From positions 276 through 64,275 of the IMG/VR virus record IMGVR_UViG_3300033150_001531: 64,000 nt of DNA; one strand, written 5' to 3'. How positions within the stretch are numbered: the stretch's first letter is position 1; each line of letters opens with the position of its first letter. Both the position numbers and the translations under genes were made by a program. The notes below the pieces were generated by a model. That model was not told where the DNA came from and did not search any database. It worked only from the letters and a program-made list of their open reading frames with translations. The DNA comes from a virus. Lineage: Duplodnaviria > Caudoviricetes. Shown here one piece after another: positions 3,962 to 18,038 of this stretch.

Positions 3962-4543
3962 ATGAAATTAAAACTAAAAAACACATGTTATAAAATCGTA
4001 AGAGTTGAAAAAGGAAAATTCATGAGTGAATTTGCTCCCTGCGGATTTTCTATAGAATACAAACTAAATAAACTACAAAAAGCCCCTAGAAACACTATGG
4101 GCTTTTTTGTTTATGAAAGTCTAGAAGATTTAAGGCAAGCAAAATATTATCTCGCTAATAATTTCCAAGAACCTCTTTCTGAGATTAAAGAAGAAAAAGT
4201 TTTCAAAGAATTAAAAGGAAAAAAATGTATTCTGAAATGCGAATGCAGTAAATTCTGGACTCCTGAAGTTATTATATCTGCTACGCAGATGTATATAATT
4301 TGGGATCGGTTTAAAAATAAAAATAAAAATAAAAATAAAAATAAAAATAAAAATAAAAAAATGACGCCCGGAAGCATATTAAAATTAGAAGGGATCAATG
4401 TTAAACTTAATAAGAAGAATAAAGTAATTAGTTACGACGTTAATCCATATCGTTATTTTAGAAGGTATCCAGATTCCAGAGCCAAAACAGTATTCTTCTG
4501 TAAACCTAAACAAGTGTTTATTTACAATTACGAGTGTTTATAA
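3962..4543 (+). CDS. paralogue 1 of unknown CYK/GFFVY/ECxCSK family
   Basis: CYKIV...NTMGFFVYESLEDL...ILKCECSKFW...KPKQV; internal (KN)n run. Confidence 0.8.
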   Translation: MKLKLKNTCYKIVRVEKGKFMSEFAPCGFSIEYKLNKLQKAPRNTMGFFVYESLEDLRQAKYYLANNFQEPLSEIKEEKVFKELKGKKCILKCECSKFWTPEVIISATQMYIIWDRFKNKNKNKNKNKNKNKKMTPGSILKLEGINVKLNKKNKVISYDVNPYRYFRRYPDSRAKTVFFCKPKQVFIYNYECL

Positions 4544-4608
4544 CTAACAAAAAATTAAAAATTTTATTGAGGAGATAAAAAAGATAAAAGAGAAAAAAAA
4601 AGGAAAAA

Positions 4609-5001
4609 ATGAAAAAAATGAAAAAACCTGAATGGATCTTAAGAGAAAAAGTTTATCAAATTGCAACGAATTCCAGAAAAGAAGTTATCGAAATTTCTGG
4701 CGGAAGGTCTCCATATTCAAATTTCGATATAATCATTTGCGATGAAGATTTCGAGCTAGGAAAAACTCCAGCGAATTATATTTTATCCGATATCGAAATA
4801 AAAACAGCTGACCCACAAACTGCTTACAAAGGTAGGCATGGTTCCGGGAGATTATTCTACGCAAAACCTAATCCAGAAGGTTTAATTTTAGTACAAAGTT
4901 GGGAAAATCCAGTTTTAGTTCTATGTGACGGAACTCCATTAGGAATCCCAAACAAAATCACTCTCGGAGATTTGTTTCCAGCTGATTCAAGGATTATATG
5001 A
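4609..5001 (+). CDS. hypothetical protein
   Basis: 130-aa ORF, upstream GAGGAG/AGGA, co-oriented. Confidence 0.7.
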   Translation: MKKMKKPEWILREKVYQIATNSRKEVIEISGGRSPYSNFDIIICDEDFELGKTPANYILSDIEIKTADPQTAYKGRHGSGRLFYAKPNPEGLILVQSWENPVLVLCDGTPLGIPNKITLGDLFPADSRII

Positions 5002-5049
5002 TCCAATTATCTGGTTTAAGATTTAAAAATTTAGGAGTTAAAAAAAATT

Positions 5050-5466
5050 ATGTCTAAAAAAAGAGAATTAGAAAAAGAATTAGAATTAGAAGTTCCAACT
5101 ATAAAATTTAATAACGGATTAGTTATTGCCAACTTTTCCAGCCCTCACCCATTCAAGTTCAATAACGGATTTATTCTAGATGCATGTTCAACAAAAAGAT
5201 GCAAGAAATTATCTCTCTTCAAAGAAGAAATCAAGGTTCTTGACTCCAGCAGAAAATTCTTTAATGTACAAGTAATTTTCAGGAGAAATCTTGTACTTGA
5301 GAAAGAACTAGAAATGCTGGAAAAAAATCCAAAAATTGATATTATTTTAGTTCCACTCCCAATCTTAACATTCTACAGAGATAATCCGCGTTTTTCAAAA
5401 ATTCGCGGCTGTATTGTAGAAGACCGAGTAAATAAGATTATTAGTTGTGAGAAATTTAGTATTTAG
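5050..5466 (+). CDS. hypothetical protein
   Basis: 138-aa ORF after AGGAG. Confidence 0.7.
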   Translation: MSKKRELEKELELEVPTIKFNNGLVIANFSSPHPFKFNNGFILDACSTKRCKKLSLFKEEIKVLDSSRKFFNVQVIFRRNLVLEKELEMLEKNPKIDIILVPLPILTFYRDNPRFSKIRGCIVEDRVNKIISCEKFSI

Positions 5467-5534
5467 TTTAATCTTAATTTAATTTAATCTTAATTTAATT
5501 TTAATTTAATTTAAGAAAAGAAAGGAAAAAAATC

Positions 5535-5942
5535 ATGAAAAGCAAATTTGCGACAGCAGAAACAATCGAAAAATTTCTTGAAACCCCGGAAGGAGAAAAT
5601 TTCGCAGAGAAAAACTTTGCATATTTATTCTTTGATGAAGATAACCAACACGAAATTGATAGAATTTTGTCTGGAGAAATGTTCAAAGTTCCTTATTGGA
5701 TTGAAAATTATCAAGGTGAGGAGTTTTTTGTCGATTACGTTGAAGGATATCATGATAAATATCCCCCCGGGGACATAACTACAACTACAATTTTCTCAGG
5801 AGAAAAACCAAAAACTTTTGGATATATCGACTCAATCCCGCTCCCGGAAGAAATTGAACATCAGGCAGAAAACGGTGAGTTCTTTTATGAATATCGTGGA
5901 CATAGTTTTTTAAGAATTTGGAAGGAGTTAAAAAATGAATAA
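5535..5942 (+). CDS. hypothetical protein
   Basis: 135-aa ORF after AAAGGA. Confidence 0.7.
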   Translation: MKSKFATAETIEKFLETPEGENFAEKNFAYLFFDEDNQHEIDRILSGEMFKVPYWIENYQGEEFFVDYVEGYHDKYPPGDITTTTIFSGEKPKTFGYIDSIPLPEEIEHQAENGEFFYEYRGHSFLRIWKELKNE

Positions 5943-6468
5943 AAATAAAAATAAAGATAAAGATAAAAATAAAGATAAAAATAAAGATAAAAATAAAGAT
6001 AAAAAAGAAAATAAGGATAAAAAAACACTGCCAAAAGCAAAAGAACTTTTTAAAGAAGAATATGAAAGGTTAAAAATTGATCCCTACCGGGATCCAGAAG
6101 ATCCTTCCGAGGCATGGATTACATATCAACCAATCTTAAACACCTACGCGAAAATCTTAGTTCAAGTAGATGATGATGATTATCAAGGGGATTCTCGTGT
6201 TCTTTATTTTAACGAAGAAACAAAAAAATATGGCTTTCTCAGATTCGGCTGGGGTTCATGTTCTGGATGTGACTGGTTGCAAGCATGTAATACTTGGGAG
6301 GAAGTCGATGAACTAATTCAAGAATTATATAATCAAATTATTTGGTTTAATTCAAAAGAGAACTGCTTAAAATATTTTCTAGAACATGATTGGGAAGGTG
6401 ATTATTCTTGGAGAGACGAAGAAACTAAAGAATTTGTTGAAAAAGTTATTAAATTTTTAAAAAATTAA
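5935..6468 (+). CDS. conserved-looking phage protein (GWGSCSGCD motif)
   Basis: YQGDSRVLY...FGWGSCSGCDWLQAC; AAGGAG upstream; N-terminal (KD/KN)n run. Confidence 0.75.
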   Translation: MNKNKNKDKDKNKDKNKDKNKDKKENKDKKTLPKAKELFKEEYERLKIDPYRDPEDPSEAWITYQPILNTYAKILVQVDDDDYQGDSRVLYFNEETKKYGFLRFGWGSCSGCDWLQACNTWEEVDELIQELYNQIIWFNSKENCLKYFLEHDWEGDYSWRDEETKEFVEKVIKFLKN

Positions 6469-6528
6469 GTTATTAAGAAATTAAGTTATTAAGAAATTAA
6501 GTTATTAAGAAATTAAGTTATTAAGAAA
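6465..6528 (+). repeat. 4 x 16-bp tandem repeat TTAAGTTATTAAGAAA
   Basis: Four exact copies starting at the upstream stop codon; no spacers. Confidence 0.95.
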
Positions 6529-6552
6529 TTAAAAAGAAAAAGGAGAAAAAAA

Positions 6553-6915
6553 ATGTATCCTACTTTTAAAAATCTAGCAGATGAGTTATCACATTACATA
6601 AGTAATGTTAAAGAACATGATGAAGATCTAAATAATGCAGTTATTTTCATTGGAAAATGTACCTGCATATCTCATAGGTGTAGTATCAAAAAAGAAAAAA
6701 TAAATATTGAATTGTCATTAAAAGAAGGTTTAAATATTTTATCTGCTGAAAAATCTCATCCCAACGGCTGTGGATACGCATATTGCCATCCAGTAGTTAT
6801 TTATCTAAGAGAAAAAATTATTATTAGTTGCGAATTCGAAGGTATGTATGGACACCGTTGGATTTGGAGATATCCAAAAATAAATATTAAACCAAGCTTT
6901 TATCAAGATGAATAG
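6553..6915 (+). CDS. hypothetical protein
   Basis: 120-aa ORF after AAGGAG. Confidence 0.7.
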   Translation: MYPTFKNLADELSHYISNVKEHDEDLNNAVIFIGKCTCISHRCSIKKEKINIELSLKEGLNILSAEKSHPNGCGYAYCHPVVIYLREKIIISCEFEGMYGHRWIWRYPKINIKPSFYQDE

Positions 6916-6983
6916 TTAAAAAATTAGAGAATTAAAAAATTAAAGAATTAAAAATTAAAGAGAAAAAGAAAAAGAAAAAGAAA

Positions 6984-7178
6984 ATGAAAATGAATAAACA
7001 TCCAATCCTTGGAGGAAAACTTGCGCCAGAAAAGGCGCGAAAACGCTTCGAAAAAAGTGTAATAATGAAAGATTATCAAGATCTTAATTTTATAAGTTTT
7101 TGGTCGTTATACTTCAGATATCTTTATTATTCGGAGTATGACAAAAAATTCTTAGAAAGCTGTAATATTAAATTTTGA
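6984..7178 (+). CDS. hypothetical protein
   Basis: 64-aa co-oriented ORF. Confidence 0.5.
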   Translation: MKMNKHPILGGKLAPEKARKRFEKSVIMKDYQDLNFISFWSLYFRYLYYSEYDKKFLESCNIKF

Positions 7179-7184
7179 TAAAAA

Positions 7185-7874
7185 ATGAAGAAAAAGAAAG
7201 GAAAACAAAACAAAATGTCAAGAGAAGAAATAGAATTAGAGAAACAAAAAGATCAAATAATCAAAGAACAAGAACAACTACAAAAAGAACAATCAGAGGA
7301 AATTTTTTCAATCCCAATCTCGCCCCCACAACAATCAGAAAGAGAATGGGTTGAATACCTAGAATCTCTCGAAAAAACAGAGGAACATTTTGTCTGCGCA
7401 AAATGTAAACAAAGCGTTGGAAAAAAGTATGTGGTTAAAGATGGACATATTTTACACGAAAAATGTCTAGATTTCTCTGGGCATCTAATAACCATGAAAT
7501 TACATGAACATGATGTCTTATGGATGTTGAATATTATCAATTATAATAAAAAACATCCGTTATACACGAAATTGATGTTATCCCTGACTGAAAAGAGAGA
7601 ATATTTTCAGTGTAAAACCTGCGACAGAGTTTTACATCGATCTTTTATGTATGAAAATCAAATGTTAAATCTAGTCATGAAATTCTTATGGTGCATCCAA
7701 AATAAGAATAAGCGGAGTTGTAATGCTTGCAGTAAAATTTTAACTTTTTGTTCAGAAGCCTGTAGTGAGAAATATTTAGAGAAGATTATGAATATGCTGA
7801 AGAGAATTGATGTTGATATAGAATATATTAAAGATTTCTTCGAGGAAGAAGAAAAAAGAAGAGATAAAAGATAA
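7185..7874 (+). CDS. multi-zinc-finger protein
   Basis: CAKC...HEKC, CKTC, CNAC...FCSEAC. Confidence 0.65.
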   Translation: MKKKKGKQNKMSREEIELEKQKDQIIKEQEQLQKEQSEEIFSIPISPPQQSEREWVEYLESLEKTEEHFVCAKCKQSVGKKYVVKDGHILHEKCLDFSGHLITMKLHEHDVLWMLNIINYNKKHPLYTKLMLSLTEKREYFQCKTCDRVLHRSFMYENQMLNLVMKFLWCIQNKNKRSCNACSKILTFCSEACSEKYLEKIMNMLKRIDVDIEYIKDFFEEEEKRRDKR

Positions 7875-7911
7875 GAGATAAAAGATAAGAGATAAGAGAT
7901 AAGAGATAAAA
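7863..7911 (+). repeat. 7 x heptamer GATAA(A/G)A
   Basis: Read directly; overlaps the stop codon. Confidence 0.9.
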
Positions 7912-7933
7912 AAAGAAAAGGAGAAAAACTAAA

Positions 7934-8209
7934 ATGCTTACAAGAAAAACTTATAACAAATTAGCCTATACTTTAGGCAAATATAAAGCGCACCAACTTT
8001 TAAACCCAAATGATCCTTATTTAGTAGATATTTTAGTAAGGGAAATTGAAGGAATTTTAAAAAATGCTAACCCAAAATTTAAGATAGAACTTTTTGAAAA
8101 AGTAATAAAGGAAACTTATAAAGAAATTTTAAGTTCAGAGCTTAAATTAAAATCTAATAGTAGAGCTTTTGAATTTGAATATGCTTGTAATTCACTTAAG
8201 CAGAAGTAG
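7934..8209 (+). CDS. hypothetical protein
   Basis: ORF after AAGGAG. Confidence 0.7.
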   Translation: MLTRKTYNKLAYTLGKYKAHQLLNPNDPYLVDILVREIEGILKNANPKFKIELFEKVIKETYKEILSSELKLKSNSRAFEFEYACNSLKQK

Positions 8210-8270
8210 GAAGTAGGAGATAAGAAATAAGAAAAAAGAAATAAGAAATAAGAAAAGGAGAAAAACTAAA

Positions 8271-8870
8271 ATGCCAAGAAAACTTTATATCATTATCCTA
8301 AAAAAAGGCAACCGCCGAAAAGTGTTAAAAATCACTTTCGGCGAACGCCTAACAGCTTATCTAAGCTGGTATCATGAAGACGGAAAATTTATCCGTCTTC
8401 AAAAACTAAAAACAATAGACGCAATCACAATGCTGTATGAAGAACAAAGTTTTATCAGCGAAATCACAAAGATTGACGGCTTAAAACAACTTCGTGGCTT
8501 TCCACTATCAGAACTTATACACGATGTAGAAAGTGAGTATTTTGTCAGAAAACATTTAGCCAAGACAAAATATGCGAATTTAAGGAAAAAGTTGCGAGAC
8601 AAATTATTAGATGAAAGATTAGAGTTAGAGAAAGAGAAAGAGAAAGAAAGTCAAGATCAAAGTCAAGAGAAAGAAGAGAAAACATCTAAAAAACTCAAAC
8701 TCGAAGAAGAATTAGACAAAACAGCGAAAGAATCACTTAAAAAAGTCGTCGATTTAGATTTAGAAGATTTAGATTTAGAAGATTTAGATCTAGATTTTGA
8801 TTATAACGATTTAAAAACAAATCTTTTTGACAAAACAAAAGACGAAGATGAAGATGAAGATGAAGATTAG
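8271..8870 (+). CDS. hypothetical protein with acidic low-complexity C-terminus
   Basis: ORF after AAGGAG; DLDLED and EDEDED runs. Confidence 0.7.
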   Translation: MPRKLYIIILKKGNRRKVLKITFGERLTAYLSWYHEDGKFIRLQKLKTIDAITMLYEEQSFISEITKIDGLKQLRGFPLSELIHDVESEYFVRKHLAKTKYANLRKKLRDKLLDERLELEKEKEKESQDQSQEKEEKTSKKLKLEEELDKTAKESLKKVVDLDLEDLDLEDLDLDFDYNDLKTNLFDKTKDEDEDEDED

Positions 8871-8873
8871 GAG

Positions 8874-9467
8874 ATGAAAACTAAAATGAAAACGAAAATG
8901 AAAAGAGAATTACTAAAACACAAATGTTATAAAACAGTTTTCTATAACAAAGAACTAAATGCTTTTACAAGTGTAACATTAACAGGAGATTTAGCATTTA
9001 AATACAAACTAAATAAACTACATAAAGCCCCAAACAATACTATGGGATTTTTTGTTTATAAATCTTTAGAAGATCTTTGTAAATCAAGTTTTACACTCTC
9101 ATACTCCTCTTTCTCTAATATAAAAGAAGTAAAAGACCTTTCAACACTTTATTCAGGACAATATTGTATTTTAGAATGCGAATGCAGTAAATTCTGGATT
9201 CCTAAAACTTTTATAAATCCTCTAGATTTTTACTTTTGGGCAGAAATGAGAAAACCTTTTAGATCTATTATAACTTCAATTCCAAACATCTCTTTAGTAA
9301 AAGACAAAAAAACAAATACAATACAATATCGTTTTCTGTCTTCACAAATGCAAACAGAGGATTCAGATTTAAATTGCACTTCTTGTTTTATAAATAAGAT
9401 AGAACATAATTTAGAATTTAAACCTTATACTGTTTTTTATTTGAAACCGAAGAAAGTTTTTGTATAA
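8874..9467 (+). CDS. paralogue 2 of CYK/GFFVY/ECxCSK family
   Basis: CYKTV...NTMGFFVYKSLEDL...ILECECSKFW...KPKKV. Confidence 0.8.
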   Translation: MKTKMKTKMKRELLKHKCYKTVFYNKELNAFTSVTLTGDLAFKYKLNKLHKAPNNTMGFFVYKSLEDLCKSSFTLSYSSFSNIKEVKDLSTLYSGQYCILECECSKFWIPKTFINPLDFYFWAEMRKPFRSIITSIPNISLVKDKKTNTIQYRFLSSQMQTEDSDLNCTSCFINKIEHNLEFKPYTVFYLKPKKVFV

Positions 9468-9504
9468 TTTTATGATTAGGAGAAAAAATATATAATGGTG
9501 AAGA

Positions 9505-9690
9505 AAGGGTGAAGATGGCCGGAGGATGGCCAAGACGAGGCGCCAGAGGCAAGGTATCCTATCCTACCTGTAAGCCCCAATCGCCCGAATTCGCCCCCCT
9601 AGCTGGCTCGAATCGACGGCCTCCAGCTCCTAGCGCCCCCGGCATCCAGACCACCGGACCCAGCCACACACATAACACTTTCTTAATGTA
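9505..9690. other. GC-rich intergenic island of unknown function
   Basis: Lines 9541-9660 count 36/60 and 42/60 G+C against a strongly AT-rich background. Confidence 0.6.
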
Positions 9691-9722
9691 AATTCTCAAA
9701 AAAGTTCTCGGAGAAACCTAAA

Positions 9723-10295
9723 ATGAGAAAAAATTTAACAAAATACACCTGTTATAAATTAGTTAGATACGATAAAAAATCGAATAAATTCTTTAGTTCA
9801 ACATTTTCTGGAACATCCGCAATAGAATATAAATTATATGAATTACAAAGAGCTCCCAGAAATACTATGGGATTTTTTGTTTATAAATCTTTAGAAGATT
9901 TAAATTTAGCAAATGACGATTGTAAAACTCAACAACATATAGAAGAAATTAAAAATCCTGAAAATTTTGAATTTAAAGAAAATTTTCTTGATCTAGACTA
10001 TAGAGAGTATAGACCCCGCTATTATATTATGGAATGTAAATGCTCTAAATTTTGGAAACCTTCAACAATTTTAAACACTCATGTTCTTAGCGATTGGCGA
10101 GCTGGAAAATGCTCTTTAAAATATCTTTTAGCTTCAAGGAAAGATATTAAGTTAGTCAAAAATGAGAAGAATAACGAATTCTTTTATACAAGTAAGATAG
10201 CTTGGTTGTTTCCATTAACATTATTAAAGAATTATCCAAAATTTAAACCTTATTGCGTATATTTTATTAGACCTGTGAAAATTTTTATTTATTAA
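9723..10295 (+). CDS. paralogue 3 of CYK/GFFVY/ECxCSK family
   Basis: CYKLV...NTMGFFVYKSLEDL...IMECKCSKFW...RPVKI. Confidence 0.8.
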   Translation: MRKNLTKYTCYKLVRYDKKSNKFFSSTFSGTSAIEYKLYELQRAPRNTMGFFVYKSLEDLNLANDDCKTQQHIEEIKNPENFEFKENFLDLDYREYRPRYYIMECKCSKFWKPSTILNTHVLSDWRAGKCSLKYLLASRKDIKLVKNEKNNEFFYTSKIAWLFPLTLLKNYPKFKPYCVYFIRPVKIFIY

Positions 10296-10306
10296 AATAT
10301 TAAAAA

Positions 10307-10849
10307 ATGAAGAAAAACAAAAACAACTATTCTCCCCTCTTCAAAGATACACTAAAATTATATGTTGTTGATAAAAAACTTCCACAAAAATACATAAATC
10401 TTTATTTAAAATTCGCAGACAAAACTACAGGCGTTTTTTATCAAAAAAACATATTAAAAACACTAATAAATATTGATCCAGATTTTACTTGCGATATTAT
10501 TAAAAATAAGAATAAGAATAAAAATAAGAATAAGAACAACCAAAATCAAAACCTTTTAGTCATTATCAACTCTAGAGGAAATTTCGAAAAATATGGAGCT
10601 AAACAAATAAAATTAAAAAAACTAATCGATAAATTATCAGAAAATGTCTTTCTTGTTTTTTATCATCCTAGTATGAAAAGATTAAAGAAAATTCGTTGTT
10701 ATCTATTAGGTAGTAACATGGTTATTCTTATGACAGAAAAAAAGTATGCGTTTTCTTGTTTCGCTTTCGATCCGTTTGCTTGCGTCGAGGCTTTAAAGGC
10801 TTGTAAGCAAGTCTATTTAGGCGCATCAACGCGTAAGGATAATGATTAA
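10307..10849 (+). CDS. hypothetical protein
   Basis: 180-aa ORF with an (NK)n run. Confidence 0.65.
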   Translation: MKKNKNNYSPLFKDTLKLYVVDKKLPQKYINLYLKFADKTTGVFYQKNILKTLINIDPDFTCDIIKNKNKNKNKNKNNQNQNLLVIINSRGNFEKYGAKQIKLKKLIDKLSENVFLVFYHPSMKRLKKIRCYLLGSNMVILMTEKKYAFSCFAFDPFACVEALKACKQVYLGASTRKDND

Positions 10850-11487: not shown

Positions 11488-11519
11488 TTTATTAGCATAC
11501 AACTCTCCCAAAAGCAAAG

Positions 11520-11560
11520 ACAGCAGGAAGTTTATTGATAAACTTCCTGCTGTTTTAATT
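11520..11560 (+). terminator. intrinsic terminator
   Basis: 16-bp inverted repeat ACAGCAGGAAGTTTAT/ATAAACTTCCTGCTGT followed by a T-run. Confidence 0.85.
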
Positions 11561-11602
11561 TTAATTTTAATTTAATTTAATTTAATTTTTCTAAGCAAAA
11601 AA

Positions 11603-11779
11603 ATGACAAAAGTTTTCGAAGTTAGAAGTATAGATTTTATCTTAGCTTTAAGAAGAGAAAACTTAGCTAAAAAATATGCTGAAAGCATTTATTTGAGAGA
11701 GAAAAGAGAAAATTATGTTAGACAATCTAGAGAGAGAAATCTCGAAGAAAGAAGAGGAAGAAGCAAAAAAGAAGATTAA
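11603..11779 (+). CDS. small basic hypothetical protein (58 aa, not in ORF track)
   Basis: Hand translation MTKVFEVRSIDFILALRREN...RSKKED. Confidence 0.4.
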   Translation: MTKVFEVRSIDFILALRRENLAKKYAESIYLREKRENYVRQSRERNLEERRGRSKKED

Positions 11780-12155
11780 AAACAAAACAAAGATTAAAAT
11801 CTTTGAATTTAAAAAAAAAGAAGAAAAAAGAAGAGGAGAAAGAGAAAAAGAAAGAGAAAAACATTATCTACTTCTTGTCGGTTTGCCCCCAGTAAAACTA
11901 AACAACACAGATATTAGCAAAACGCAAAAAATCCTCACTAGAGTTTTAGCCCCACTACATGAAAAGAAAATAAATCTTGCAGTTCTCACCTGCAATGTTG
12001 ATTTACTAGATTCTATTTCCTTGCGGGAAGTTGATGCAGAAATGTATCAAGTTCTACAAAAAGTTAGTAACATGGAAAAAGAACTTGGTAATTTTTTCTC
12101 CCTCAATTCTGAATCTGAATCTAAGTCTGAATCTGAAATAAAAGATAAAAAATAA
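11715..12155 (+). CDS. hypothetical protein
   Basis: Co-oriented ORF; start uncertain. Confidence 0.55.
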   Translation: MLDNLEREISKKEEEEAKKKIKNKTKIKIFEFKKKEEKRRGEREKEREKHYLLLVGLPPVKLNNTDISKTQKILTRVLAPLHEKKINLAVLTCNVDLLDSISLREVDAEMYQVLQKVSNMEKELGNFFSLNSESESKSESEIKDKK

Positions 12156-12157
12156 GA

Positions 12158-12192
12158 AATAAAGAATAAAGAATAAAGAATAAAGAATAAAG
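12158..12192 (+). repeat. 5 x heptamer AATAAAG
   Basis: Read directly. Confidence 0.9.
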
Positions 12193-12208
12193 ATAAGGAT
12201 TTAAAAGA

Positions 12209-12430
12209 ATGAATTGCCCAAATTGCGGAGGCGATAAGGTTGTTTTAACTTCAAATTTGGTATTCAATAGGGTATTTCTGCAGGATAAAGAATCTGAGCT
12301 TGAATCTAAATCTAAAATTAAATCTAAAGTTAAATCTAAACCCAAACTAAAATATCTCCATTGTTTATCATGCTTAAGTATTTTTAATCTAGAATACGAA
12401 AAATTTGTTGAAAGTACACTGGAGAAGTAA
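12209..12430 (+). CDS. small zinc-ribbon protein
   Basis: CPNCGG...CLSC. Confidence 0.65.
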   Translation: MNCPNCGGDKVVLTSNLVFNRVFLQDKESELESKSKIKSKVKSKPKLKYLHCLSCLSIFNLEYEKFVESTLEK

Positions 12431-12433
12431 CTT

Positions 12434-12784
12434 ATGAGTGCCCTTACAAAACACAAAAAGCAATTAAACACACCCAAAGAAACCTACGATTTATTTGTAT
12501 CTTATAAGATAAAACCAAGAGGCGACGAACCTTTACTTAAAGAACTAACATACAAAAATTATCGAATCCTTTTTTGGAAACGCGTAATAAAAACAAATGT
12601 AGATTTAAATACAAGTTTACGATTTTGTATGAATTATATTCACGAACGTGTTCACAAAATCGAAGCCAAAAACGTAATGTATCATATTGTTAAAACATCT
12701 TTAGTAAATGATCCAATGGATATTTTAAAAGAGAGATTTAAAGATGAGTTCAGAAATAAAAACAAAAACGAAAATGAAAAATAA
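12434..12784 (+). CDS. hypothetical protein
   Basis: GGAG upstream; co-oriented. Confidence 0.65.
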   Translation: MSALTKHKKQLNTPKETYDLFVSYKIKPRGDEPLLKELTYKNYRILFWKRVIKTNVDLNTSLRFCMNYIHERVHKIEAKNVMYHIVKTSLVNDPMDILKERFKDEFRNKNKNENEK

Positions 12785-13352
12785 ACTAAAACTAAAATAT
12801 AAATGTTTCAAGGTAGTTTATAACCCAGAACCCTTTGAATTTTATTCATCTCACACAGATTTAGGAGAAGTACAATATAATCTAAACGAAGAACATTATG
12901 CTTCAGAAGTTGGTTTTCTAGTCTTTAAAAACTACTCAGATGCTTATAGATTTGCTATCGCAAGCGCAAGCACAGAAGATGATTTTACTTATGCAATCTT
13001 AGAATCTAAATGTTCAAAACTACGCCCAATCAAAATACTTTTTAAAGAGAGTTTAAGATGCGGAGAATTACCCATAATAAAATATGAAAAGAAGAAAAAC
13101 GAAATTCACGCAGTCTCACCAGAATTTTGCATAAATTTATCAAATTCCTCCCAGTATATTCTGCCAGCAGAATACTACGTAAATGAAATATTTAGTACTC
13201 CCCCGGGGACATACAGTACGTATAAACTCAAGCCTATTAAATTGAAAGCTAGAATTTATAGATCACAAAGTACATATAATATCTGTATAGAAACTTTTAC
13301 GCCGATTGATGTAGAACAATTTTTTCCAAAAGCGAGTAAGTATAATGACTGA
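12744..13352 (+). CDS. paralogue 4 of CYK/GFFVY/ECxCSK family
   Basis: CFKVV...GFLVFKNY...ILESKCSKLRPI...KPIKL. Confidence 0.78.
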   Translation: MSSEIKTKTKMKNKLKLKYKCFKVVYNPEPFEFYSSHTDLGEVQYNLNEEHYASEVGFLVFKNYSDAYRFAIASASTEDDFTYAILESKCSKLRPIKILFKESLRCGELPIIKYEKKKNEIHAVSPEFCINLSNSSQYILPAEYYVNEIFSTPPGTYSTYKLKPIKLKARIYRSQSTYNICIETFTPIDVEQFFPKASKYND

Positions 13353-13413
13353 AAAATTTAAATTAAAAAACACCTGTTAAAATGACTAAATTAAAAAAAA
13401 GAGAGATTTAAAG

Positions 13414-14001
13414 ATGAAAACAAAAACGAAAACGAAAACGAAAACGAAACAACCAAATATTAAATTAAAACTCAAAAACGAATGCTTCAAAGTAGTTTAT
13501 CAACCAAAACCAACTGGATTACAAACACAAAACGATATTTATTATTCCGCAATCACAAAATATCATACACAAAAATACATAATAAATAAACTTATCCGCG
13601 CTAATGAAGCAGGATTTTTAGTCTTTAAAAACTTTGGTCTTGCTTATAACTTCGCATTAAATTACACCCGATTTAATCGTGATTTTTTTATTTTAGAATG
13701 TGAATGTTCTAACCTAAGACCAATTTATCATCTTCTTAAAGAACATACTAGATTAAAACTAGGTGAAAAAGTTAAATATGTTAAAACTAAAGAAGAAATT
13801 TTTGCTCAAATAGAAGATTCTCTAATAAATTTATCAGTACCTTCTCCAATTATAATACCGAAAAACTTTTGTAATAGCTTTTTCTCCGTAGCACCTGGCT
13901 TTTTCAGTACATATTATTTAAAACCTATTAGATGCGCAATTTACTTTTCTGTATTACCAAAACGCGTTGGTATTACTGCACGATTTTGTAGAAACTCATG
14001 A
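13414..14001 (+). CDS. paralogue 5 of CYK/GFFVY/ECxCSK family
   Basis: CFKVV...GFLVFKNF...ILECECSNLRPI...KPIRC. Confidence 0.78.
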   Translation: MKTKTKTKTKTKQPNIKLKLKNECFKVVYQPKPTGLQTQNDIYYSAITKYHTQKYIINKLIRANEAGFLVFKNFGLAYNFALNYTRFNRDFFILECECSNLRPIYHLLKEHTRLKLGEKVKYVKTKEEIFAQIEDSLINLSVPSPIIIPKNFCNSFFSVAPGFFSTYYLKPIRCAIYFSVLPKRVGITARFCRNS

Positions 14002-14034
14002 AGATACACAAGATTTTAGAATTAAAATAAGAAG

Positions 14035-15765
14035 GTGTTTATGAAAGAAGAAAAATCAAACATTATAGAAATCGACCCCAAACTATTACTCTCTCTTAAT
14101 ATGATGGGTTTTGGGAAAATTTTATCTGAGCGTTTAGTTGAATTTTATGGAGAAGAAAAACTAAAGAAAATATTATCAACAAATATCTACCAGATTGTAG
14201 AAGTTGAAGGAATTAGTTTTGGCAGAGTAGATAAAGCAGCTAGCATTTTAAATTACGATAAAAATGATGAGAGAAGACAAAAAGCAGCCATCTTATATGT
14301 TTTAACCAACGCCCAAAATTACGGTCATACTTATCTTCCTAAATTTCTTATTCGAAAAGAGTTAAAAAAATTAAAAATTTATCTCAAAGATTTAAATAAA
14401 ATTCTTGAAGAGTTAGAAGAAGAGAGAAAAATTGTTGTTGCTGAGGGAGAGAGATTTTATATTTATTGGTTAGAACATATGGAAGCACAAACTTCAAGTA
14501 TAATTGAAGAGAGAGGAAAATTTAAAAATAATTTAAGAATTAAATACGAGATTCCAGAATATTTCGACGAATCTCAAAAAGCAGCAGTTAAAAAACTTTT
14601 AAAAGGTGAAAACATCAGCATTTTAACTGGAGGCCCAGGCACAGGCAAAACAACAATAACGAAATTTATTTGTGAAACTCTTAAAAATAATACTTTAAAT
14701 TTTAAACTTTGCGCCCCGACCGGTAAAGCTGCAAAAAGACTAGAAGAAGCTACCAATGAAAAAGCTCAAACAATTCACAGACTTTTCAAAGCTGGAATGT
14801 TTGGGCAGTGGCATTACAATAAGAATAATAAATATCGAAACCTTGATTATTTAATCATTGACGAAAGTTCAATGTTAAATGTGAATTTAGTTTATCGATT
14901 TTTACAAGCTCTAGAATTAAAAACTAGAATTATCTTCATAGGAGACATTTTTCAACTTCCTCCAATCGGCCCGGGCTTCTTCTTAAGAGATTTAATTAAA
15001 ACTAAAAAATTCCCTACAGCATACCTAACAACAAACCATCGTCAAGGCCCTGGTAGTGTTATTGCAAATAATGCACTTGCAATAAATCGTGCAAAATTTA
15101 ATGTAAATTTAAAATTCAACGATACAGATATGCAATACGTCGAATGCAAATCTCCGATTGAAATTCGAGAGAAAATTTTAGGAGAAATCGATAAACTCCT
15201 TGTAGATTTTTCCCCAGACGACATACAAGTTTTAAGCCCGCAAAGAACTACATCCGTTGGTGTTGAAGAGTTGAACACACTCTTAAGATTTCATTTAAAT
15301 CCACTTGCAAAAGCGAAAAAATTAGGTTTAAAGGGTTTCTGCAAAAACGACAGAGTTATGCAAACTATAAATGATTATTCTTTGGGGATTTTTAACGGTT
15401 TTGTTGGTAGAATTATTAAAGATTTAGGAAATGTTTTTGAAATTAACTTCTTTGACTACGAAAATATAATGTATCCTAAAGAGAAAATGAGTGCCCTTAC
15501 TCATGCTTATGCTTGTACTGTGCACAAATTTCAAGGCAGCGAAGTTAAAGCAGGAATTATAATAATTTCCTCATCCCACACATTTATGCTGACGCGAAAT
15601 CTTCTTTATACTGCAATGACGCGATTTAAAGAAAAGTGTGTATTTATGGGAGATAGAATGGCAATAGCGCGGGCTATAAATAACACTAAAGAACAAAAAA
15701 GATATTCTTATCTTTATGAAAGGTTAGTTGAAGAAGATGAATTTTTTACTAGGAGAACTCCATAA
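14035..15765 (+). CDS. recD2: RecD2-like SF1B helicase
   Basis: N-terminal HhH region (GISFGRVDKAA), TGGPGTGKTT, APTGKAAKRL, IIDESSM, GDIFQLPPIG, TVHKFQGSE, RNLLYTAMTR. Confidence 0.93.
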   Translation: MFMKEEKSNIIEIDPKLLLSLNMMGFGKILSERLVEFYGEEKLKKILSTNIYQIVEVEGISFGRVDKAASILNYDKNDERRQKAAILYVLTNAQNYGHTYLPKFLIRKELKKLKIYLKDLNKILEELEEERKIVVAEGERFYIYWLEHMEAQTSSIIEERGKFKNNLRIKYEIPEYFDESQKAAVKKLLKGENISILTGGPGTGKTTITKFICETLKNNTLNFKLCAPTGKAAKRLEEATNEKAQTIHRLFKAGMFGQWHYNKNNKYRNLDYLIIDESSMLNVNLVYRFLQALELKTRIIFIGDIFQLPPIGPGFFLRDLIKTKKFPTAYLTTNHRQGPGSVIANNALAINRAKFNVNLKFNDTDMQYVECKSPIEIREKILGEIDKLLVDFSPDDIQVLSPQRTTSVGVEELNTLLRFHLNPLAKAKKLGLKGFCKNDRVMQTINDYSLGIFNGFVGRIIKDLGNVFEINFFDYENIMYPKEKMSALTHAYACTVHKFQGSEVKAGIIIISSSHTFMLTRNLLYTAMTRFKEKCVFMGDRMAIARAINNTKEQKRYSYLYERLVEEDEFFTRRTP

Positions 15766-15998
15766 TGAGCTTCTTTGCTTTCTTTTTAACTTACGGCGCT
15801 ATAGGTGCTATTCTTGGAGAGTTGCTTTTGTTATTTTTGGATAAAAAATACGGTATAGACTCTCTTAATAAAGATGATGCTTCAAAAGTTTTATTTGTCT
15901 TGATTTTATTTGGCCCTTTTTGGTGGATTATAATATGTTTTCTGCTTTCCTGCTTGTATTTTTGGATTTGGAAGATGAAGATGAAGATTAGGAGATGA
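15765..15998 (+). CDS. small two-TM membrane protein
   Basis: Two hydrophobic segments; AGGAG upstream. Confidence 0.6.
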   Translation: MSFFAFFLTYGAIGAILGELLLLFLDKKYGIDSLNKDDASKVLFVLILFGPFWWIIICFLLSCLYFWIWKMKMKIRR

Positions 15999-16001
15999 AA
16001 A

Positions 16002-16127
16002 ATGTCTGTGACTGAAAATTTCTTAGAAGACATTAAAAAAGTGGTTAATGCTGAAGAAGTTGAAAGTGTTGTTATCGGTGAAATGGGCTGGGGAGATTAT
16101 AGAAAAGAATTAGTTCCACCTTCTTAA
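16002..16127 (+). pseudogene. 41-aa ORF, possibly a truncated gene remnant
   Basis: AGGAG upstream; MSVTENF...VVIGEMGWGDYRKELVPPS, then an abrupt stop. Confidence 0.3.
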
Positions 16128-16160
16128 GATTTCATTTAAATTAATTAAGGAAAAATCACA

Positions 16161-16400
16161 ATGAATATTGATGGAGAAATGACTTTTTTTGAAGAGGAAA
16201 AGCAAGCAGAAATCGCAAAGATATTGTTGGAGCGTGTAACTAAAAGACCTCATCCTTATTTTACCAGGGGTCAATATGTTCAGGTCTGTGGAGCATGGTT
16301 TCAGGTGAAACTAATTCTAAAAGACAGAATGGTGTTAATACCAATGAGTGATAAAATGGCCGAAGTGCTGAACCAAAAACAGCATGAAAAAAGGAGCTAA
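16161..16400 (+). CDS. hypothetical protein
   Basis: ORF after TAAGGA. Confidence 0.6.
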   Translation: MNIDGEMTFFEEEKQAEIAKILLERVTKRPHPYFTRGQYVQVCGAWFQVKLILKDRMVLIPMSDKMAEVLNQKQHEKRS

Positions 16401-16473
16401 GAAAGTACCAGATCCATCTAGTGAGCACAATCTTTTAATCGTGAAGAATAAAAAAAGAACATAAGAGAAGATA

Positions 16474-16926
16474 ATGCAATTAAATTACACTTGTTATAAA
16501 TTAGTGTTAGTTTATCGAACAAATCCATTAGTTTTTAGGTCTGCTATTCTACATCCGAAGTCCAAATTATCAATACAATATCAATTAGATAAAATATCAC
16601 GGAATAAACCAGGCTTTCCGGGGATATTTGTATACATACAATGCCCAAAGAATCTCAGTACTAGTAAATTATGGAGAACAGGCGCAGTCCTAAAGTGCAA
16701 ATGTTCTAAGCCTCAACCTTTGATTGATTATTTTTCTTTGCGTAATCTCAGGAATCTTGAAAAAGATCACGTAAAAATTCGCAAAATGGCATCGCATTTT
16801 GATTGTAAAAGGACAAAAGACTATGTACAGATAATACCGCAGAATTATGCAGTAGTCAGAGATAGTCATTTTGTTGTTGAATATTTAATGCCGGTTGAAG
16901 TTGTTGGTTATTCGGTTTTATTATAA
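16474..16926 (+). CDS. paralogue 6 of CYK/GFFVY/ECxCSK family
   Basis: CYKLV...PGIFVY...VLKCKCSKP...VEYLMPVEV. Confidence 0.78.
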   Translation: MQLNYTCYKLVLVYRTNPLVFRSAILHPKSKLSIQYQLDKISRNKPGFPGIFVYIQCPKNLSTSKLWRTGAVLKCKCSKPQPLIDYFSLRNLRNLEKDHVKIRKMASHFDCKRTKDYVQIIPQNYAVVRDSHFVVEYLMPVEVVGYSVLL

Positions 16927-16961
16927 GCTTTTGTAGATAAAGAAAGGAGAAAAAAAAGAAA

Positions 16962-17489
16962 ATGAAATTAAATTACAAATGTTATAAAGAAGTAATACTT
17001 TACAAGAAAAATCCTCTAACTTTTGCATCTGCACACGCAAAATCAAGCTCGAAATTTTCAATAAAATATCAATTAGGAAAAATATCCCGTAACAAGCCTC
17101 ATCTTCCAGGCATGTTTATTTATAAAGATTGCCCAGATCAGCTTCATTTTCCTGGAGAAAGCAAAGACCTTCTTATACATCATTTATCTACTAAAGAATA
17201 TGAATATGCTACACTAATTTTAGAATGTCAATGTTCAAAATTAAAGAAAATATCAGCTGTATTAGACCTCTATTCTTTGTATTTATTAAATTCCACTATA
17301 AAAAATCTCGGGGAAGTAAAGAATTATATAAATTATCAAGAGCAAAAGTTTGAAAATGAATGGTGTATGATGTTTAGTATTTATTCTACTTTCCTTAAAA
17401 ACCGAATAAAGTTTTATCATGACTATAAGGATTACGTAGTAGAATATTTAAAACCTATAAGAATTGTTGGGATTAAAAAAGATTATTAA
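16962..17489 (+). CDS. paralogue 7 of CYK/GFFVY/ECxCSK family
   Basis: CYKEV...PGMFIY...ILECQCSKL...VEYLKPIRI. Confidence 0.8.
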   Translation: MKLNYKCYKEVILYKKNPLTFASAHAKSSSKFSIKYQLGKISRNKPHLPGMFIYKDCPDQLHFPGESKDLLIHHLSTKEYEYATLILECQCSKLKKISAVLDLYSLYLLNSTIKNLGEVKNYINYQEQKFENEWCMMFSIYSTFLKNRIKFYHDYKDYVVEYLKPIRIVGIKKDY

Positions 17490-17507
17490 TTTAAGAAAGA
17501 TAAATGA

Positions 17508-18038
17508 ATGTTGAAATTAAATTACAAATGTTATAAAGAAGTTATTTTATATAAAAAAGAACCATCGGCTTTTTTTTCTTTAGTCATTAATAAAGATTCG
17601 AGATTTTCAATAAAATATCAACTAGGAAAAATCTCAAGGAATAAGCCTTATATGCCTGGAATTTTTATTTATCCTGACTGGATATCATGTTTTTATAATA
17701 ATAATAAGGTTAAAATATCTATGGAAGATTTTTTAGCTGATGGGCCAGAAATTTTTATAGTAGGTTTAGAATGTGAATGTTCAAAGCCAAAAAGATTGAC
17801 GAATAGACTAGAATTATTTTATATACAAAGTGTAATTCAACATGTAAAAAACTTCGCAACAATAAAACAACATATAAGTTATAAAAAGTGGAAAATAGGA
17901 AACTCTTGGTATATGTCAATGGATATTCATCCCTTTAATCATATATGTGCAGTAACAGTTGGCTCCTCAATTTCTAACTTGCTTCGTGTGGTGGAGTATT
18001 TAAGGCCTGTAAGAATTGTTAGAGTAAAAGAGTTTTGA
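17508..18038 (+). CDS. paralogue 8 of CYK/GFFVY/ECxCSK family
   Basis: CYKEV...PGIFIY...GLECECSKP...VEYLRPVRI. Confidence 0.8.
   Translation: MLKLNYKCYKEVILYKKEPSAFFSLVINKDSRFSIKYQLGKISRNKPYMPGIFIYPDWISCFYNNNKVKISMEDFLADGPEIFIVGLECECSKPKRLTNRLELFYIQSVIQHVKNFATIKQHISYKKWKIGNSWYMSMDIHPFNHICAVTVGSSISNLLRVVEYLRPVRIVRVKEF

What the first reader, a model, noticed from the sequence alone, without database searches (positions are those of the whole stretch)
3962..18038. Eight dispersed paralogues of an unknown family with a fixed scaffold and hypervariable core
Seen: ORFs at 3962, 8874, 9723, 12744, 13414, 16474, 16962 and 17508 share C[YF]KxV, a following S and Y, G[FIM][FL][VI][YF], [LM][EK][CS]xCS[KN] and a terminal [KR/M]P[IVK]x[IVLC] strand. 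The segment between CSK and the last strand is unalignable. They form three subfamilies (NTMGFFVY x3, GFLVFKN x2, ISRNKP x3), in tandem pairs or triplets. Inference: repeated duplication and diversification into an effector arsenal with different targets, e.g. anti-defence or host-protein modification. The aromatic-K / G-aromatic / E strand order is loosely reminiscent of an ADP-ribosyltransferase-type core, but that is a guess. This occupies about a quarter of the early region, and no named family came to mind.
Basis: partly seen in the sequence, partly recalled or inferred. Interest (0 to 1): 0.82.

Follow-up and report, generated by a model that had tools for sequence, protein, structure and literature searches.

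The report
Eight-copy phage ART-fold accessory family
An uncultured 64-kb phage carries eight diverged copies of an unnamed small early protein whose predicted core folds like an ADP-ribosyltransferase but lacks that enzyme's usual catalytic residues, and whose variable inserts and strain-to-strain gene swapping suggest, but do not prove, a set of host- or defence-targeting proteins.

Summary
Eight + strand genes (150-202 aa) at the stated coordinates form one family in three subfamilies (solo + pair, pair, triplet), with nine invariant columns. The window is nearly all of a 99%-complete IMG/VR phage record, which holds exactly eight copies.

Pfam, PHROGs, PDB sequences and GenBank phages give no match. 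A profile search of 1.84 billion proteins shows the eight are an enlarged branch of a wider unnamed family of 120-150 aa phage proteins, which is also multi-copy elsewhere.

The catalytic signature does not hold. Lys replaces the strand-1 His/Arg, and no acidic column exceeds 59%. Ser and Tyr are invariant in an insertion absent from the one ART sequence compared (KptA).

The nearest named sequence relative is the uncharacterised DUF7666 (hhalign 74%).

The core is under strong purifying selection (dN/dS 0.04), the inserts are relaxed (0.56-0.72), and a 97.6%-identical sister phage has swapped one cassette. Function is untested.

The parts
3962..4543 (+). p3962, subfamily A (NTMGFFVY), 193 aa, solo copy. 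Its variable insert holds an (AAAAAT)n tract that encodes an NK run.
   Evidence: Its orthologue P0009 (72% identical) lies on contig L003. dN/dS by segment is.
8874..9467 (+). p8874, subfamily A, 197 aa, first gene of a pair.
9723..10295 (+). p9723, subfamily A, 190 aa, second gene of the pair. A 255-bp GC-rich spacer separates it from p8874.
12744..13352 (+). p12744, subfamily B (GFLVFKN), 202 aa. It keeps the wider family's PxGT motif.
13414..14001 (+). p13414, subfamily B, 195 aa, in tandem with p12744.
16474..16926 (+). p16474, subfamily C (ISRNKP), 150 aa, first gene of the triplet. This is the protein modelled by AlphaFold2 (pLDDT 76.4).
16962..17489 (+). p16962, subfamily C, 175 aa. 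The sister phage's copy (P0040) is 99% identical.
17508..18038 (+). p17508, subfamily C, 176 aa, last gene of the triplet.
16131..16937 (+). Cassette (79-aa ORF plus p16474). In the sister phage L001/L002 it is replaced by a different stretch carrying paralogue P0006 (181 aa, 43-55% identical to subfamily C). Both flanks are about 97.6% identical.
16002..16127 (+). 41-aa ORF. Its first 39 residues are identical to the start of the sister phage's 112-aa protein, and it then stops, so it was truncated at the left junction of the swap.
13354..13382 (+). Relic of a family 5' end (KFKLKNTC then a stop), 86% identical to 3965-3993.
   Evidence: (family D18)

Best explanation
The eight genes are early accessory proteins built on one domain. 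That domain is a very divergent, phage-restricted branch of the ADP-ribosyltransferase (ART) fold superfamily. It is distantly related in sequence to the uncharacterised DUF7666 'head' domain.

Shown:
- The family and its copy number.
- The predicted split-beta core.
- Retrieval of ART-fold chains almost exclusively.
- Strong purifying selection on the core and relaxed evolution of two inserts.
- Recurrent tandem or multi-domain expansion in other phages.
- A cassette swap between near-identical phages.

Inferred:
- The conserved core supplies one common chemical function. Candidate site residues are the near-invariant Lys on strand 1 (at the position of the catalytic His/Arg of ARTs), the invariant Ser and Tyr, and a conserved aromatic cluster.
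- That function is most likely binding, and possibly turnover, of NAD+ or an ADP-ribose-like nucleotide.
- The mostly helical variable inserts choose a different host or defence target for each paralogue, as proposed for the helical region of AcrIF11.

The canonical His/Arg, Tyr/Ser and Glu triad is absent. If the proteins are enzymes, the chemistry is non-canonical. The nearest pattern is the acid-less H-H-h (Tpt1/KptA) clade. My split is roughly 30-35% for an NAD+-using enzyme and the remainder for a ligand-binding protein without transfer.
For: Family and copy number.

Wider family: 35 cluster representatives at E<=1e-3, most of 120-150 aa, with the same scaffold.

Fold:
- Model of p16474: pLDDT 76.4, pTM 0.71.
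- Model of distant member P0017: pLDDT 89.1, pTM 0.84.
- Foldseek's best PDB hit is Arr, probability 0.87.
- SCOP places BC2332-like and CC0527-like in the ART superfamily (PMC3000352).

Register:
- First-residue offsets in both models put the Lys on Arg9 of pertussis S1, Arg7 of LT and His99 of Runella Tpt1 (His99 as an NAD+ contact from PMC8464070). The numbering of the toxin arginines is from my own knowledge.
- Motif order matches E. coli KptA: YH-GT / VHLS..A / VILTV / NGVW.
- The Tpt1 triad HGT/HLA/NGV is listed in PMC7955679.

Conservation: K 97%, S 100%, Y 100%, aromatic at position 43 100%.

Selection: core dN/dS 0.04, inserts 0.56-0.72.

Turnover.

Multi-copy elsewhere.

Precedent for a small, sequence-orphan phage ART with non-canonical residues and a variable helical region: AcrIF11 (PMC12421852).

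Structure neighbours in the ESM Atlas: DUF7666 and Gad2, TM 0.52-0.58. hhalign to a DUF7666-like head: 74%, E 2.8e-5.
Against: - The two models share much of their alignment, so they are not fully independent.
- No sequence-level link to any ART family: Pfam is silent apart from one DUF2441 hit at E 0.066, PDB profiles are silent, and hhalign to KptA gives probability 0.1.
- No acidic column exceeds 59%.
- The Gly-Thr of H-G-T and the Ser/Gln after strand 2, which contact NAD+ in Tpt1, are not conserved.
- Lys at triad position 1 is listed only for human ART3 (K-L-V) in PMC7955679. ART3 is generally regarded as inactive (my own knowledge).
- The phage encodes no macrodomain, ARH, NADAR or NAD-salvage gene among the ORFs scanned.
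- Residue-level superposition could not be done because no coordinates are available.
- Subfamilies A and B were not modelled.
- No experiment bears on function, timing or targets.
Confidence: 0.48

Rival explanations
1. Pseudo-ART adaptor. The ART-like core is only a stable scaffold that binds no nucleotide. The proteins act stoichiometrically, each docking its variable helical insert on a host or defence protein as an inhibitor or decoy. This would resemble the TASOR pseudo-PARP domain or DUF7666 heads that carry repeat 'binder' tails.
For: The canonical triad is absent and there is no conserved acid. Most mapped Tpt1 NAD+ contacts are replaced. ART-fold hits include non-enzymatic members such as the TASOR pseudo-PARP and PARP13. 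Related DUF7666 heads are fused to pentapeptide, HEAT, RHS, WG or helical repeats that look like binding modules. High copy number fits stoichiometric inhibitors that each need their own target.
Against: Three polar residues (K, S, Y) stay invariant or nearly so across sequences that are only 16-25% identical. The core's dN/dS is 0.04. Dead enzymes usually lose such constellations, whereas a conserved polar triad suggests a shared ligand or shared chemistry.
Confidence: 0.3
2. Not ART-related in function or origin. On this view it is a phage-specific small alpha/beta domain whose likeness to ARTs is convergent or a modelling bias. It could work as a nucleic-acid-binding regulator, or the genes could be selfish, mobile cassettes that spread and swap by recombination without benefit to the phage.
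Against: Forty-nine of the top 50 of 48,161 chains coming from one superfamily, by my reading of the titles, is not what a generic fold gives, and it recurs with two models. The Atlas's own ESMFold model of P0017 points to DUF7666 and Gad2 neighbours. No nuclease, integrase or DNA-binding motif or family was found. Strong purifying selection on the core argues for a function that is selected.
Confidence: 0.17
3. Targeted hypermutation: the variable segments are diversified by a diversity-generating retroelement or a similar programmed mechanism.
For: Only the pattern itself: a fixed scaffold with very variable segments.
Against: No template/variable repeat pair exists among the copies; the repeats found are low-complexity tracts or the conserved 5' ends. 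No reverse transcriptase turned up among the ORFs scanned. The variable segments differ in length and by indels, and dN/dS there is below 1.
Confidence: 0.02

Closest known systems
DUF7666 (Pfam PF24703), an uncharacterised phage/bacterial 'head' domain usually fused to pentapeptide, HEAT, RHS, WG or helical repeats
   Same: Nearest named relative by sequence. hhalign of the family profile to the sub-threshold DUF7666 head of a jumbo-phage protein gives 74% probability and E 2.8e-5 over the GIFVF-helix-ILECEC block. Predicted-structure neighbours have TM 0.52-0.58, and BFVD gives weak hits. It shares the Y-K strand-1 motif, is phage-restricted, is often multi-copy, and combines a conserved head with a variable specificity part.
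   Different: The Pfam model finds nothing in the window even at E<=10. The window's proteins carry no repeat tail; their variability lies in inserts inside the domain. The invariant Ser is not evident in the DUF7666-like head examined (by eye). DUF7666 itself has no known function, and no paper mentions it.
Tpt1/KptA NAD+-binding C-lobe (H-H-h clade of the ART superfamily; PF01885)
   Different: There is no N-lobe and no R-H-R-R phosphate-binding tetrad. H-G-T reads K-V-V. The strand-2 His is Phe or Val. A 13-residue longer strand1-strand2 connection carries the invariant Ser and Tyr. hhalign to KptA is silent.
BC2332 (PDB 2aua; SCOP 'BC2332-like' ART family) and Arr rifampin ADP-ribosyltransferase (2hw2, 9iaf)
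   Same: Highest Z in both models (BC2332 6.6-6.7 over 95-96 residues; Arr 4.5-5.8). Arr is also Foldseek's best PDB hit. Arr is likewise a minimal ART of about 140 aa. One family member touches Pfam DUF2441 at E 0.066. That DUF2441 is BC2332's Pfam family is my recollection and was not checked.
   Different: No significant sequence match. Arr has an H-Y-D triad (my own knowledge), and the family has none of its three residues.
AcrIF11, a phage/plasmid anti-CRISPR ADP-ribosyltransferase (PDB 6kyf)
   Same: A small, sequence-orphan phage ART that was recognised only by structure. It has non-canonical key residues (H-F-H-D), a conserved beta-sheet, and a poorly conserved helical region proposed to recognise the target (PMC12421852). 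It appears in the hit list.
Gad2 (Gabija anti-defence 2; Pfam PF26128)
   Same: A predicted-structure neighbour of P0017 in the ESM Atlas (TM 0.58 over 83 residues). It is a validated phage anti-defence protein whose mechanism is unknown (PMC12904381).
   Different: Gad2 is about 400 aa and is described as having a nucleotidyltransferase domain (PMC13670838). Only a sub-domain can match. The Pfam model is not in the local library, so no sequence test was possible.
T4 Alt / ModA / ModB (R-S-E phage ARTs)
   Same: Phage-encoded ARTs used for host takeover, and paralogous within one phage (established knowledge). Earlier notes of this scan list tandem Alt arrays.
   Different: They have a canonical R-S-E triad and are recognisable by sequence. 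The present family has neither property.

Membership tests
ADP-ribosyltransferase fold superfamily (SCOP d.166.1 / Pfam ADP-ribosyl clan) | Split beta-sheet core with flanking helices (strand order 4-5-2 / 1-3-6) | tested here: met
ADP-ribosyltransferase fold superfamily | His or Arg on strand 1 (first triad position) | tested here: not met
   Lys occupies this column in 97% of 39 sequences. Alignment offsets place it on Arg9 of pertussis S1, Arg7 of LT and His99 of Tpt1.
ADP-ribosyltransferase fold superfamily | Tyr, Ser/Thr or His on strand 2 (second triad position) | tested here: inconclusive
   The strand reads G-I-F-V-[FY]. Position 43 is aromatic in 100% of members, and is Tyr in the window's subfamilies A and C. 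Without coordinates the exact register cannot be fixed.
ADP-ribosyltransferase fold superfamily (H-Y-[EDQ] and R-S-E clades) | Conserved Glu/Asp/Gln at the front of strand 5 | tested here: not met
   No alignment column is acidic in more than 59% of members. The 'ECE' of ILECEC is acidic in 46% at each of its two positions. The stretch that corresponds to KptA's N-G-V reads x-G-T.
ADP-ribosyltransferase fold superfamily | Significant sequence or profile match to an ART family model | tested here: not met
   Pfam scans of all 39 members at E<=10 show no ART family; there is one DUF2441 hit at E 0.066. PDB profile searches are empty. hhalign to KptA gives probability 0.1.
ADP-ribosyltransferase fold superfamily | NAD+ binding and ADP-ribose transfer | not testable with these tools
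   This needs purified protein (ITC/DSF, etheno-NAD+ assay, ADP-ribose blot).
Tpt1/KptA (PF01885) | Two-lobe architecture with the R-H-R-R tetrad and the H-G-T / H-L-[SA] / N-G-V motifs | tested here: not met
   The window proteins are single-domain. H-G-T reads K-V-V, and the strand-2 His is absent. Only the C-lobe fold matches.
DUF7666 (PF24703) | Match to the Pfam model at or above its 27-bit cut-off | tested here: not met
   No match in the window's genome at E<=10, and none in Pfam scans of family members.
DUF7666 (PF24703) | Remote homology: profile similarity and a shared predicted fold | tested here: inconclusive
   hhalign to a sub-threshold (18.1-bit) DUF7666 head gives 74% probability, E 2.8e-5, over 39 columns. 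Atlas TM is 0.52-0.58. BFVD E-values are 0.5-1.2.
Gad2 (PF26128) | Protein of about 400 aa with the Gad2 domain, including a nucleotidyltransferase-type domain | tested here: not met
   The window proteins are 150-202 aa with no such Pfam match. Only a sub-domain structural likeness exists (TM 0.58). The Pfam model is not in the library.
Diversity-generating retroelement targets | Reverse transcriptase plus a template/variable repeat pair | tested here: not met
   No such repeats. No RT among the ORFs scanned.

The most novel reading that the evidence does not exclude
The family, together with DUF7666 heads, is a new clade of ART-fold enzymes. It would use a Lys-Ser-Tyr constellation instead of His/Arg, Tyr/Ser and Glu to bind an NAD+-type nucleotide and transfer from it. 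Target choice would be encoded in exchangeable helical inserts. On this reading, the phage carries an eight-member arsenal of host- or defence-modifying enzymes whose cassettes are swapped between strains.
Probability: 0.2. Interest if true: 0.85.

Novelty: new variant of a known kind. Interest (0 to 1): 0.62.

Why it matters
Small, fast-evolving early genes are where most phage counter-defence proteins have been found, and most of them cannot be named by sequence.

This work gives such a family a definition (a profile), a fold, a candidate functional site and a clear set of mutants to make:
- It has no Pfam or PHROG entry and was not detected by tblastn in cultured phages.
- It is expanded to eight copies in one 64-kb genome and is multi-copy in others.
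- Its fold is ART-like.
- Its candidate site is Lys, Ser and Tyr.

If the core binds or uses NAD+, the ART superfamily gains a fourth catalytic pattern and phage biology gains a modular effector family. If it does not, the family is a clear example of an enzyme fold reused as a scaffold for variable binders.

Either result would also shed light on the uncharacterised DUF7666 proteins, and perhaps on the matching sub-domain of the anti-Gabija protein Gad2.

Tried and rejected
Searches that found nothing:
- Pfam and PHROGs on the eight proteins and on ten distant members gave only chance-level hits. A permissive Pfam tally over 39 members gave no recurrent family.
- Sequence-profile searches of the PDB were empty.
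- tblastn of four members against 50,697 GenBank phages gave no match, two searches at E<=0.01 and two at E<=1.
- The DUF2441 and DUF7666 Pfam models found nothing in the window's genome. The Gad2 model is not in the library.
- hhalign of the family profile against E. coli KptA gave probability 0.1.
- Pattern-based locus searches were inefficient. The viral scans gave 0 and 1 locus, the genome scan 0, and the metagenome scan only the query's own contig. Two alignments had no usable conserved stretch.
- The word-indexed protein search found only 8 proteins.
- Foldseek against the PDB gave no hit at E<=0.001 for either model.
- Rfam and tRNA scans of the window were empty.

Ideas rejected:
- A cysteine-based active site or metal site. 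The Cys of CYK and of CxCS are invariant among the eight but only 46-69% conserved in the wider family.
- 'ECE' as an ART ExE motif. Each of its two acidic positions is acidic in only 46% of members.
- DGR-type hypermutation. There are no template repeats and no RT.
- A conserved partner gene next to each copy. None was seen.

- Residue-level superposition or pocket analysis, because model coordinates are not exposed.

Full report
**1. What is there**

The window is bases 276-64275 of a 64,275-base IMG/VR virus record that CheckV rates 99% complete. It is AT-rich, about 30% G+C. Its layout is as follows:
- The + strand block carries an SNF2-type helicase, many small ORFs, a RecD2-like helicase, a Lar-like protein, a PD-(D/E)XK nuclease, an AAA_24 ATPase, a fused UDG-exonuclease-PolA and a DUF3987 primase/helicase-type protein.
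- The - strand block from about 32 to 60 kb carries terminase, a Mu-type portal and structural genes.

**2.

The eight proteins align with nine invariant columns: C, K, V, S, Y, G, CS and P. Every quoted motif is present.

Blastp in a database of only these eight gives E 1e-22 to 1e-39 within subfamilies. Across subfamilies it gives 1e-11 to 0.36, and each subfamily is joined to the others through p8874 or p16962 at 1e-6 to 1e-11.

A profile of the eight finds eight places in the genome and no more. An HMM scan of all six-frame ORFs of 60 aa or more agrees.

The layout is:
- Subfamily A: 3962 alone, then the pair 8874 and 9723.
- Subfamily B: the tandem pair 12744 and 13414.
- Subfamily C: the tandem triplet 16474, 16962 and 17508.

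A short relic of a family 5' end (KFKLKNTC then a stop) sits at 13354-13382.

**3. The eight are a branch of a wider, unnamed phage family**

Pfam and PHROGs give nothing credible for the eight.

An exhaustive profile search of 1.84 billion cluster representatives returned three kinds of hit:
- The window's own proteins.
- Two close outsiders: P0006 (181 aa) and P0009 (186 aa).
- Twenty-six weaker hits (E 4.5e-9 to 8e-4), most of 120-150 aa.

The weaker hits share the scaffold [C/Y]YKVV … F-x-S … Y-x-L-G … G-I-F-V-F-x-x-L-E-x-A-x-x-F … I-L-E-C-E … P-x-G-T … K-P. They also have no Pfam or PHROG family. tblastn found no relative in 50,697 GenBank phage records.

Across 39 sequences that are only 20-43% identical to the reference member, conservation is as follows:

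| Position (P0017 numbering) | Conservation |
|---|---|
| Ser16 | 100% |
| Tyr27 | 100% |
| Lys5 | 97% |
| Position 43 | 100% aromatic |
| The cysteines that are invariant among the eight | 46-69% |

ESM Atlas neighbours are unnamed viral clusters of 50-430 members. So the wider family is common in uncultured phages.

**4. Multi-copy is a family habit**

| Locus | Copies |
|---|---|
| L006 (9.8 kb) | 4 |
| L005 (2.7 kb) | 7 domains in three adjacent genes (1 + 3 + 3) |
| L011, L013 | tandem pairs |
| 255-kb jumbo-phage record | 3 dispersed |
| L004, L012 (20-kb stretches examined) | 1 each |

Several of these contigs share the window's replication-module genes: L004 and L012 have the AAA_24 and UDG/PolA genes (L004 also PD-(D/E)XK), and P0014's contig has all of these plus RecD2. 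That suggests the family travels with one phage clade, among its early and replication genes.

**5. Fixed scaffold, variable inserts, and turnover**

P0009 (contig L003) is the orthologue of p3962, at 72% identity. Nei-Gojobori estimates by segment are:

| Segment of p3962 | dN/dS |
|---|---|
| N-terminal core (57 of 58 residues identical) | 0.04 |
| ILKCECSK strand | 0.07 |
| Last strand | 0.14 |
| Linker before the CSK strand | 0.72 |
| Insert after CSK | 0.56 |

So there are two variable segments. They are relaxed or diversifying, but dN/dS does not exceed 1. This is one gene pair and the segments are small.

In contigs L001/L002 the flanks are 97.0-97.6% identical to the window, but window 16131-16937 (a 79-aa ORF plus p16474) is replaced. 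The replacement carries P0006, which is 43-55% identical to the three subfamily C proteins. The next gene is 99% identical to p16962.

At the left junction, the window's 41-aa ORF (16002-16127) equals the first 39 residues of the sister phage's 112-aa protein and then stops. The swap was therefore a recombination event that broke a neighbour.

A 31-nt stop-RBS-start junction is repeated at 8850-8880 and at 15973-16003. It may be one of the substrates for such exchanges, but this is inference.

No template/variable repeat pair or reverse transcriptase exists. DGR-type mutagenesis is therefore excluded.

**6. Fold**

AlphaFold2 results:
- p16474, with a 35-sequence alignment: pLDDT 76.4, pTM 0.71. 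The strands are confident (blocks above 86), and the insert (residues about 95-130) is poor.
- P0017, a distant 121-aa member, with 39 sequences: pLDDT 89.1, pTM 0.84.

Foldseek found nothing significant in the PDB for either model. For P0017 its best hit was Arr rifampin ADP-ribosyltransferase (probability 0.87, E 0.11), with BC2332 and Arr-2 also listed.

The Foldseek-independent search of 48,161 representative chains gave lists made almost wholly of ART-superfamily proteins, for both models. Values for P0017:

|---|---|---|
| BC2332 (2aua) | 6.7 | 95 residues aligned |
| Arr | 5.8 | |
| Tpt1 (9ld3) | 5.4 | rmsd 3.1 A |
| TreX | 4.6 | |
| Pertussis S1 | 4.5 | |

Below these came PltA, Scabin, TreTu, LT, CC0527, AvrPphF, CARDS, diphtheria-like toxins, PARP1-4/10/13/15/16, the TASOR pseudo-PARP, Tne2, SidE, HopU1, CteC, the RES toxins MbcT and ParT, and AcrIF11.

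SCOP files BC2332-like and CC0527-like as families of the ART superfamily (PMC3000352). ProFunc had linked BC2332 to diphtheria-toxin-type sites (PMC3024214).

**7. Active-site reading**

Coordinates are not exposed. Registers were therefore inferred from the first aligned residues and from motif order.

Strand 1:
- In both models the family Lys falls on Arg9 of pertussis S1, Arg7 of LT and Arg10 of CARDS toxin. Those residue numbers are from my own knowledge.
- It also falls on His99 of Runella Tpt1, given that model residues 1-119 align to chain residues 95-178.
- His99 and Thr101 bind the adenosine ribose of NAD+. Ser125/Gln126 and Asn163/Val165 hold the nicotinamide riboside (PMC8464070).

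Motif order against the real E. coli KptA sequence:

| KptA | Family |
|---|---|
| F-L-Y-H-G-T | x-C-Y-K-V-V |
| Y-V-H-L-S…A..V | I-F-V-F..L-E-x-A..F |
| V-I-L-T-V | I-I-L-E-C |
| N-G-V-W-L-T | x-G-T-Y |

PMC7955679 lists the Tpt1 triad as H-H-V, with motifs HGT / HLA / NGV. It defines the three ART clades as H-H-h, H-Y-[EDQ] and R-S-E.

The family therefore reads Lys / aromatic-hydrophobic / Thr, which fits none of the three clades. It is nearest in pattern to the acid-less H-H-h clade. No column is acidic in more than 59% of members, so a conserved catalytic Glu/Asp is excluded whatever the register.

The invariant Ser and Tyr lie in a strand1-strand2 connection that is about 13 residues longer than in KptA.

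No sequence method links the family to any ART.

**8. Nearest named relatives**

The ESM Atlas's own model of P0017 has DUF7666 (PF24703) clusters at TM 0.52-0.58. These are fused to pentapeptide, HEAT, RHS or WG repeats. A Gad2 (PF26128) cluster lies at TM 0.58 over 83 residues. BFVD also gave weak DUF7666 and 'Pentapeptide' hits.

The Pfam DUF7666 model does not hit the window. It does give a sub-threshold match (18.1 bits) in a 462-aa jumbo-phage protein whose N-terminus reads like the family. hhalign of the family profile to that head gives 74% probability and E 2.8e-5 over 39 columns.

No paper mentions DUF7666. Gad2 is a validated anti-Gabija protein of unknown mechanism, described as carrying a nucleotidyltransferase domain. 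The link to it is a lead only.

An earlier follow-up of this scan, on another genome (e1-5693196), described DUF7666 heads 'folded like an ADP-ribosyltransferase' joined to hypervariable helical repeats. That agrees with this report, but it is not independent evidence.

**9. Interpretation**

Shown:
- A real, selected, eight-copy family.
- An ART-like predicted fold.
- A non-canonical conserved Lys/Ser/Tyr/aromatic set.
- Variable, mostly helical inserts.
- Cassette turnover.
- Recurrent expansion in other phages.

Inferred:
- The core performs one shared chemical task in the cleft that holds NAD+ in ARTs.
- The inserts select different targets. AcrIF11 is the best precedent for a small, sequence-orphan phage ART with odd residues and a variable helical part (PMC12421852).

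The strict conservation of three polar residues at 16-25% overall identity, together with a core dN/dS of 0.04, makes me favour a ligand-binding or catalytic core over a purely structural one. Against that, most mapped Tpt1 NAD+ contacts are lost, no acid is conserved, and no ADP-ribose-processing gene was found in the phage. These facts keep the enzymatic reading at about one in three.

Anti-defence or host takeover is the likeliest biological role. This rests on position (among early genes, next to a Lar-like gene), on copy number and on turnover. Nothing here tests it.

**10. Verdict**

This is a new variant of a known kind: a DUF7666-like, phage-restricted branch of the ART fold with a Lys-Ser-Tyr signature and internal variable inserts.

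Noticed in passing
window 9505-9690: A GC-rich island of about 185 bp lies between paralogues p8874 and p9723 in a genome of about 30% G+C. It is not a tRNA and matches no Rfam family at gathering thresholds. The best sigma-70-like promoter match of the region (11 of 12) ends at 9468, just upstream.
   Followed up: partly
window 8850-8880 and 15973-16003: The same 31-nt stop-RBS-start junction occurs twice. One copy leads into p8874. The other lies next to the left edge of the cassette that is swapped in the sister phage. It may be a recombination substrate.
   Followed up: partly
window 4313-4361 (also 5929-6010 and 10500-10535): In-frame (AAAAAT)n-type hexamer tracts encode NK/KN/KD runs inside several early ORFs, including the variable insert of p3962. 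The tract is absent from the orthologue P0009. These look like length-variable simple repeats.
   Followed up: partly
window 32-3022: A 996-aa SNF2-family helicase (Pfam SNF2-rel_dom, E 1.3e-14) has a C-terminal extension of about 130 residues after a lysine-rich linker. This was not tested here.
   Followed up: no
window 3563-3901: A 112-aa ORF gives a sub-threshold match to the RNA polymerase alpha C-terminal domain (21.6 bits against a cut-off of 23.8). It and the preceding ORF are missing from the more distant relative L003, where the p3962 orthologue directly follows the SNF2 gene.
   Followed up: partly
window 18272-18700: A 142-aa ORF matches the Lar restriction-alleviation family (E 1.5e-9). 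It lies just downstream of the subfamily C triplet, in a short stretch of higher G+C (0.39).
   Followed up: no
L004 8849-12110: In this related phage the PolA exonuclease and polymerase parts are separate genes. An RNA ligase, a family member (P0031) and a 100-aa ORF lie between them. In the window UDG, exonuclease and PolA form one 794-aa gene (26500-28884).
   Followed up: partly
L005 312-2761: Three adjacent genes hold 1 + 3 + 3 copies of the family domain within 2.7 kb. These are tandem-domain fusion forms of the family.
   Followed up: partly
L014 550-1938 (- strand): A 462-aa jumbo-phage protein joins a DUF7666-like head, related to this family, to about seven helical repeats with a W..L...EK motif. 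It is a head-plus-variable-tail design.
   Followed up: partly
window 20021-21295: A 424-aa ORF with a C-terminal CxxC…CxxC motif has no Pfam match at E<=0.01. This was not examined here.
   Followed up: no
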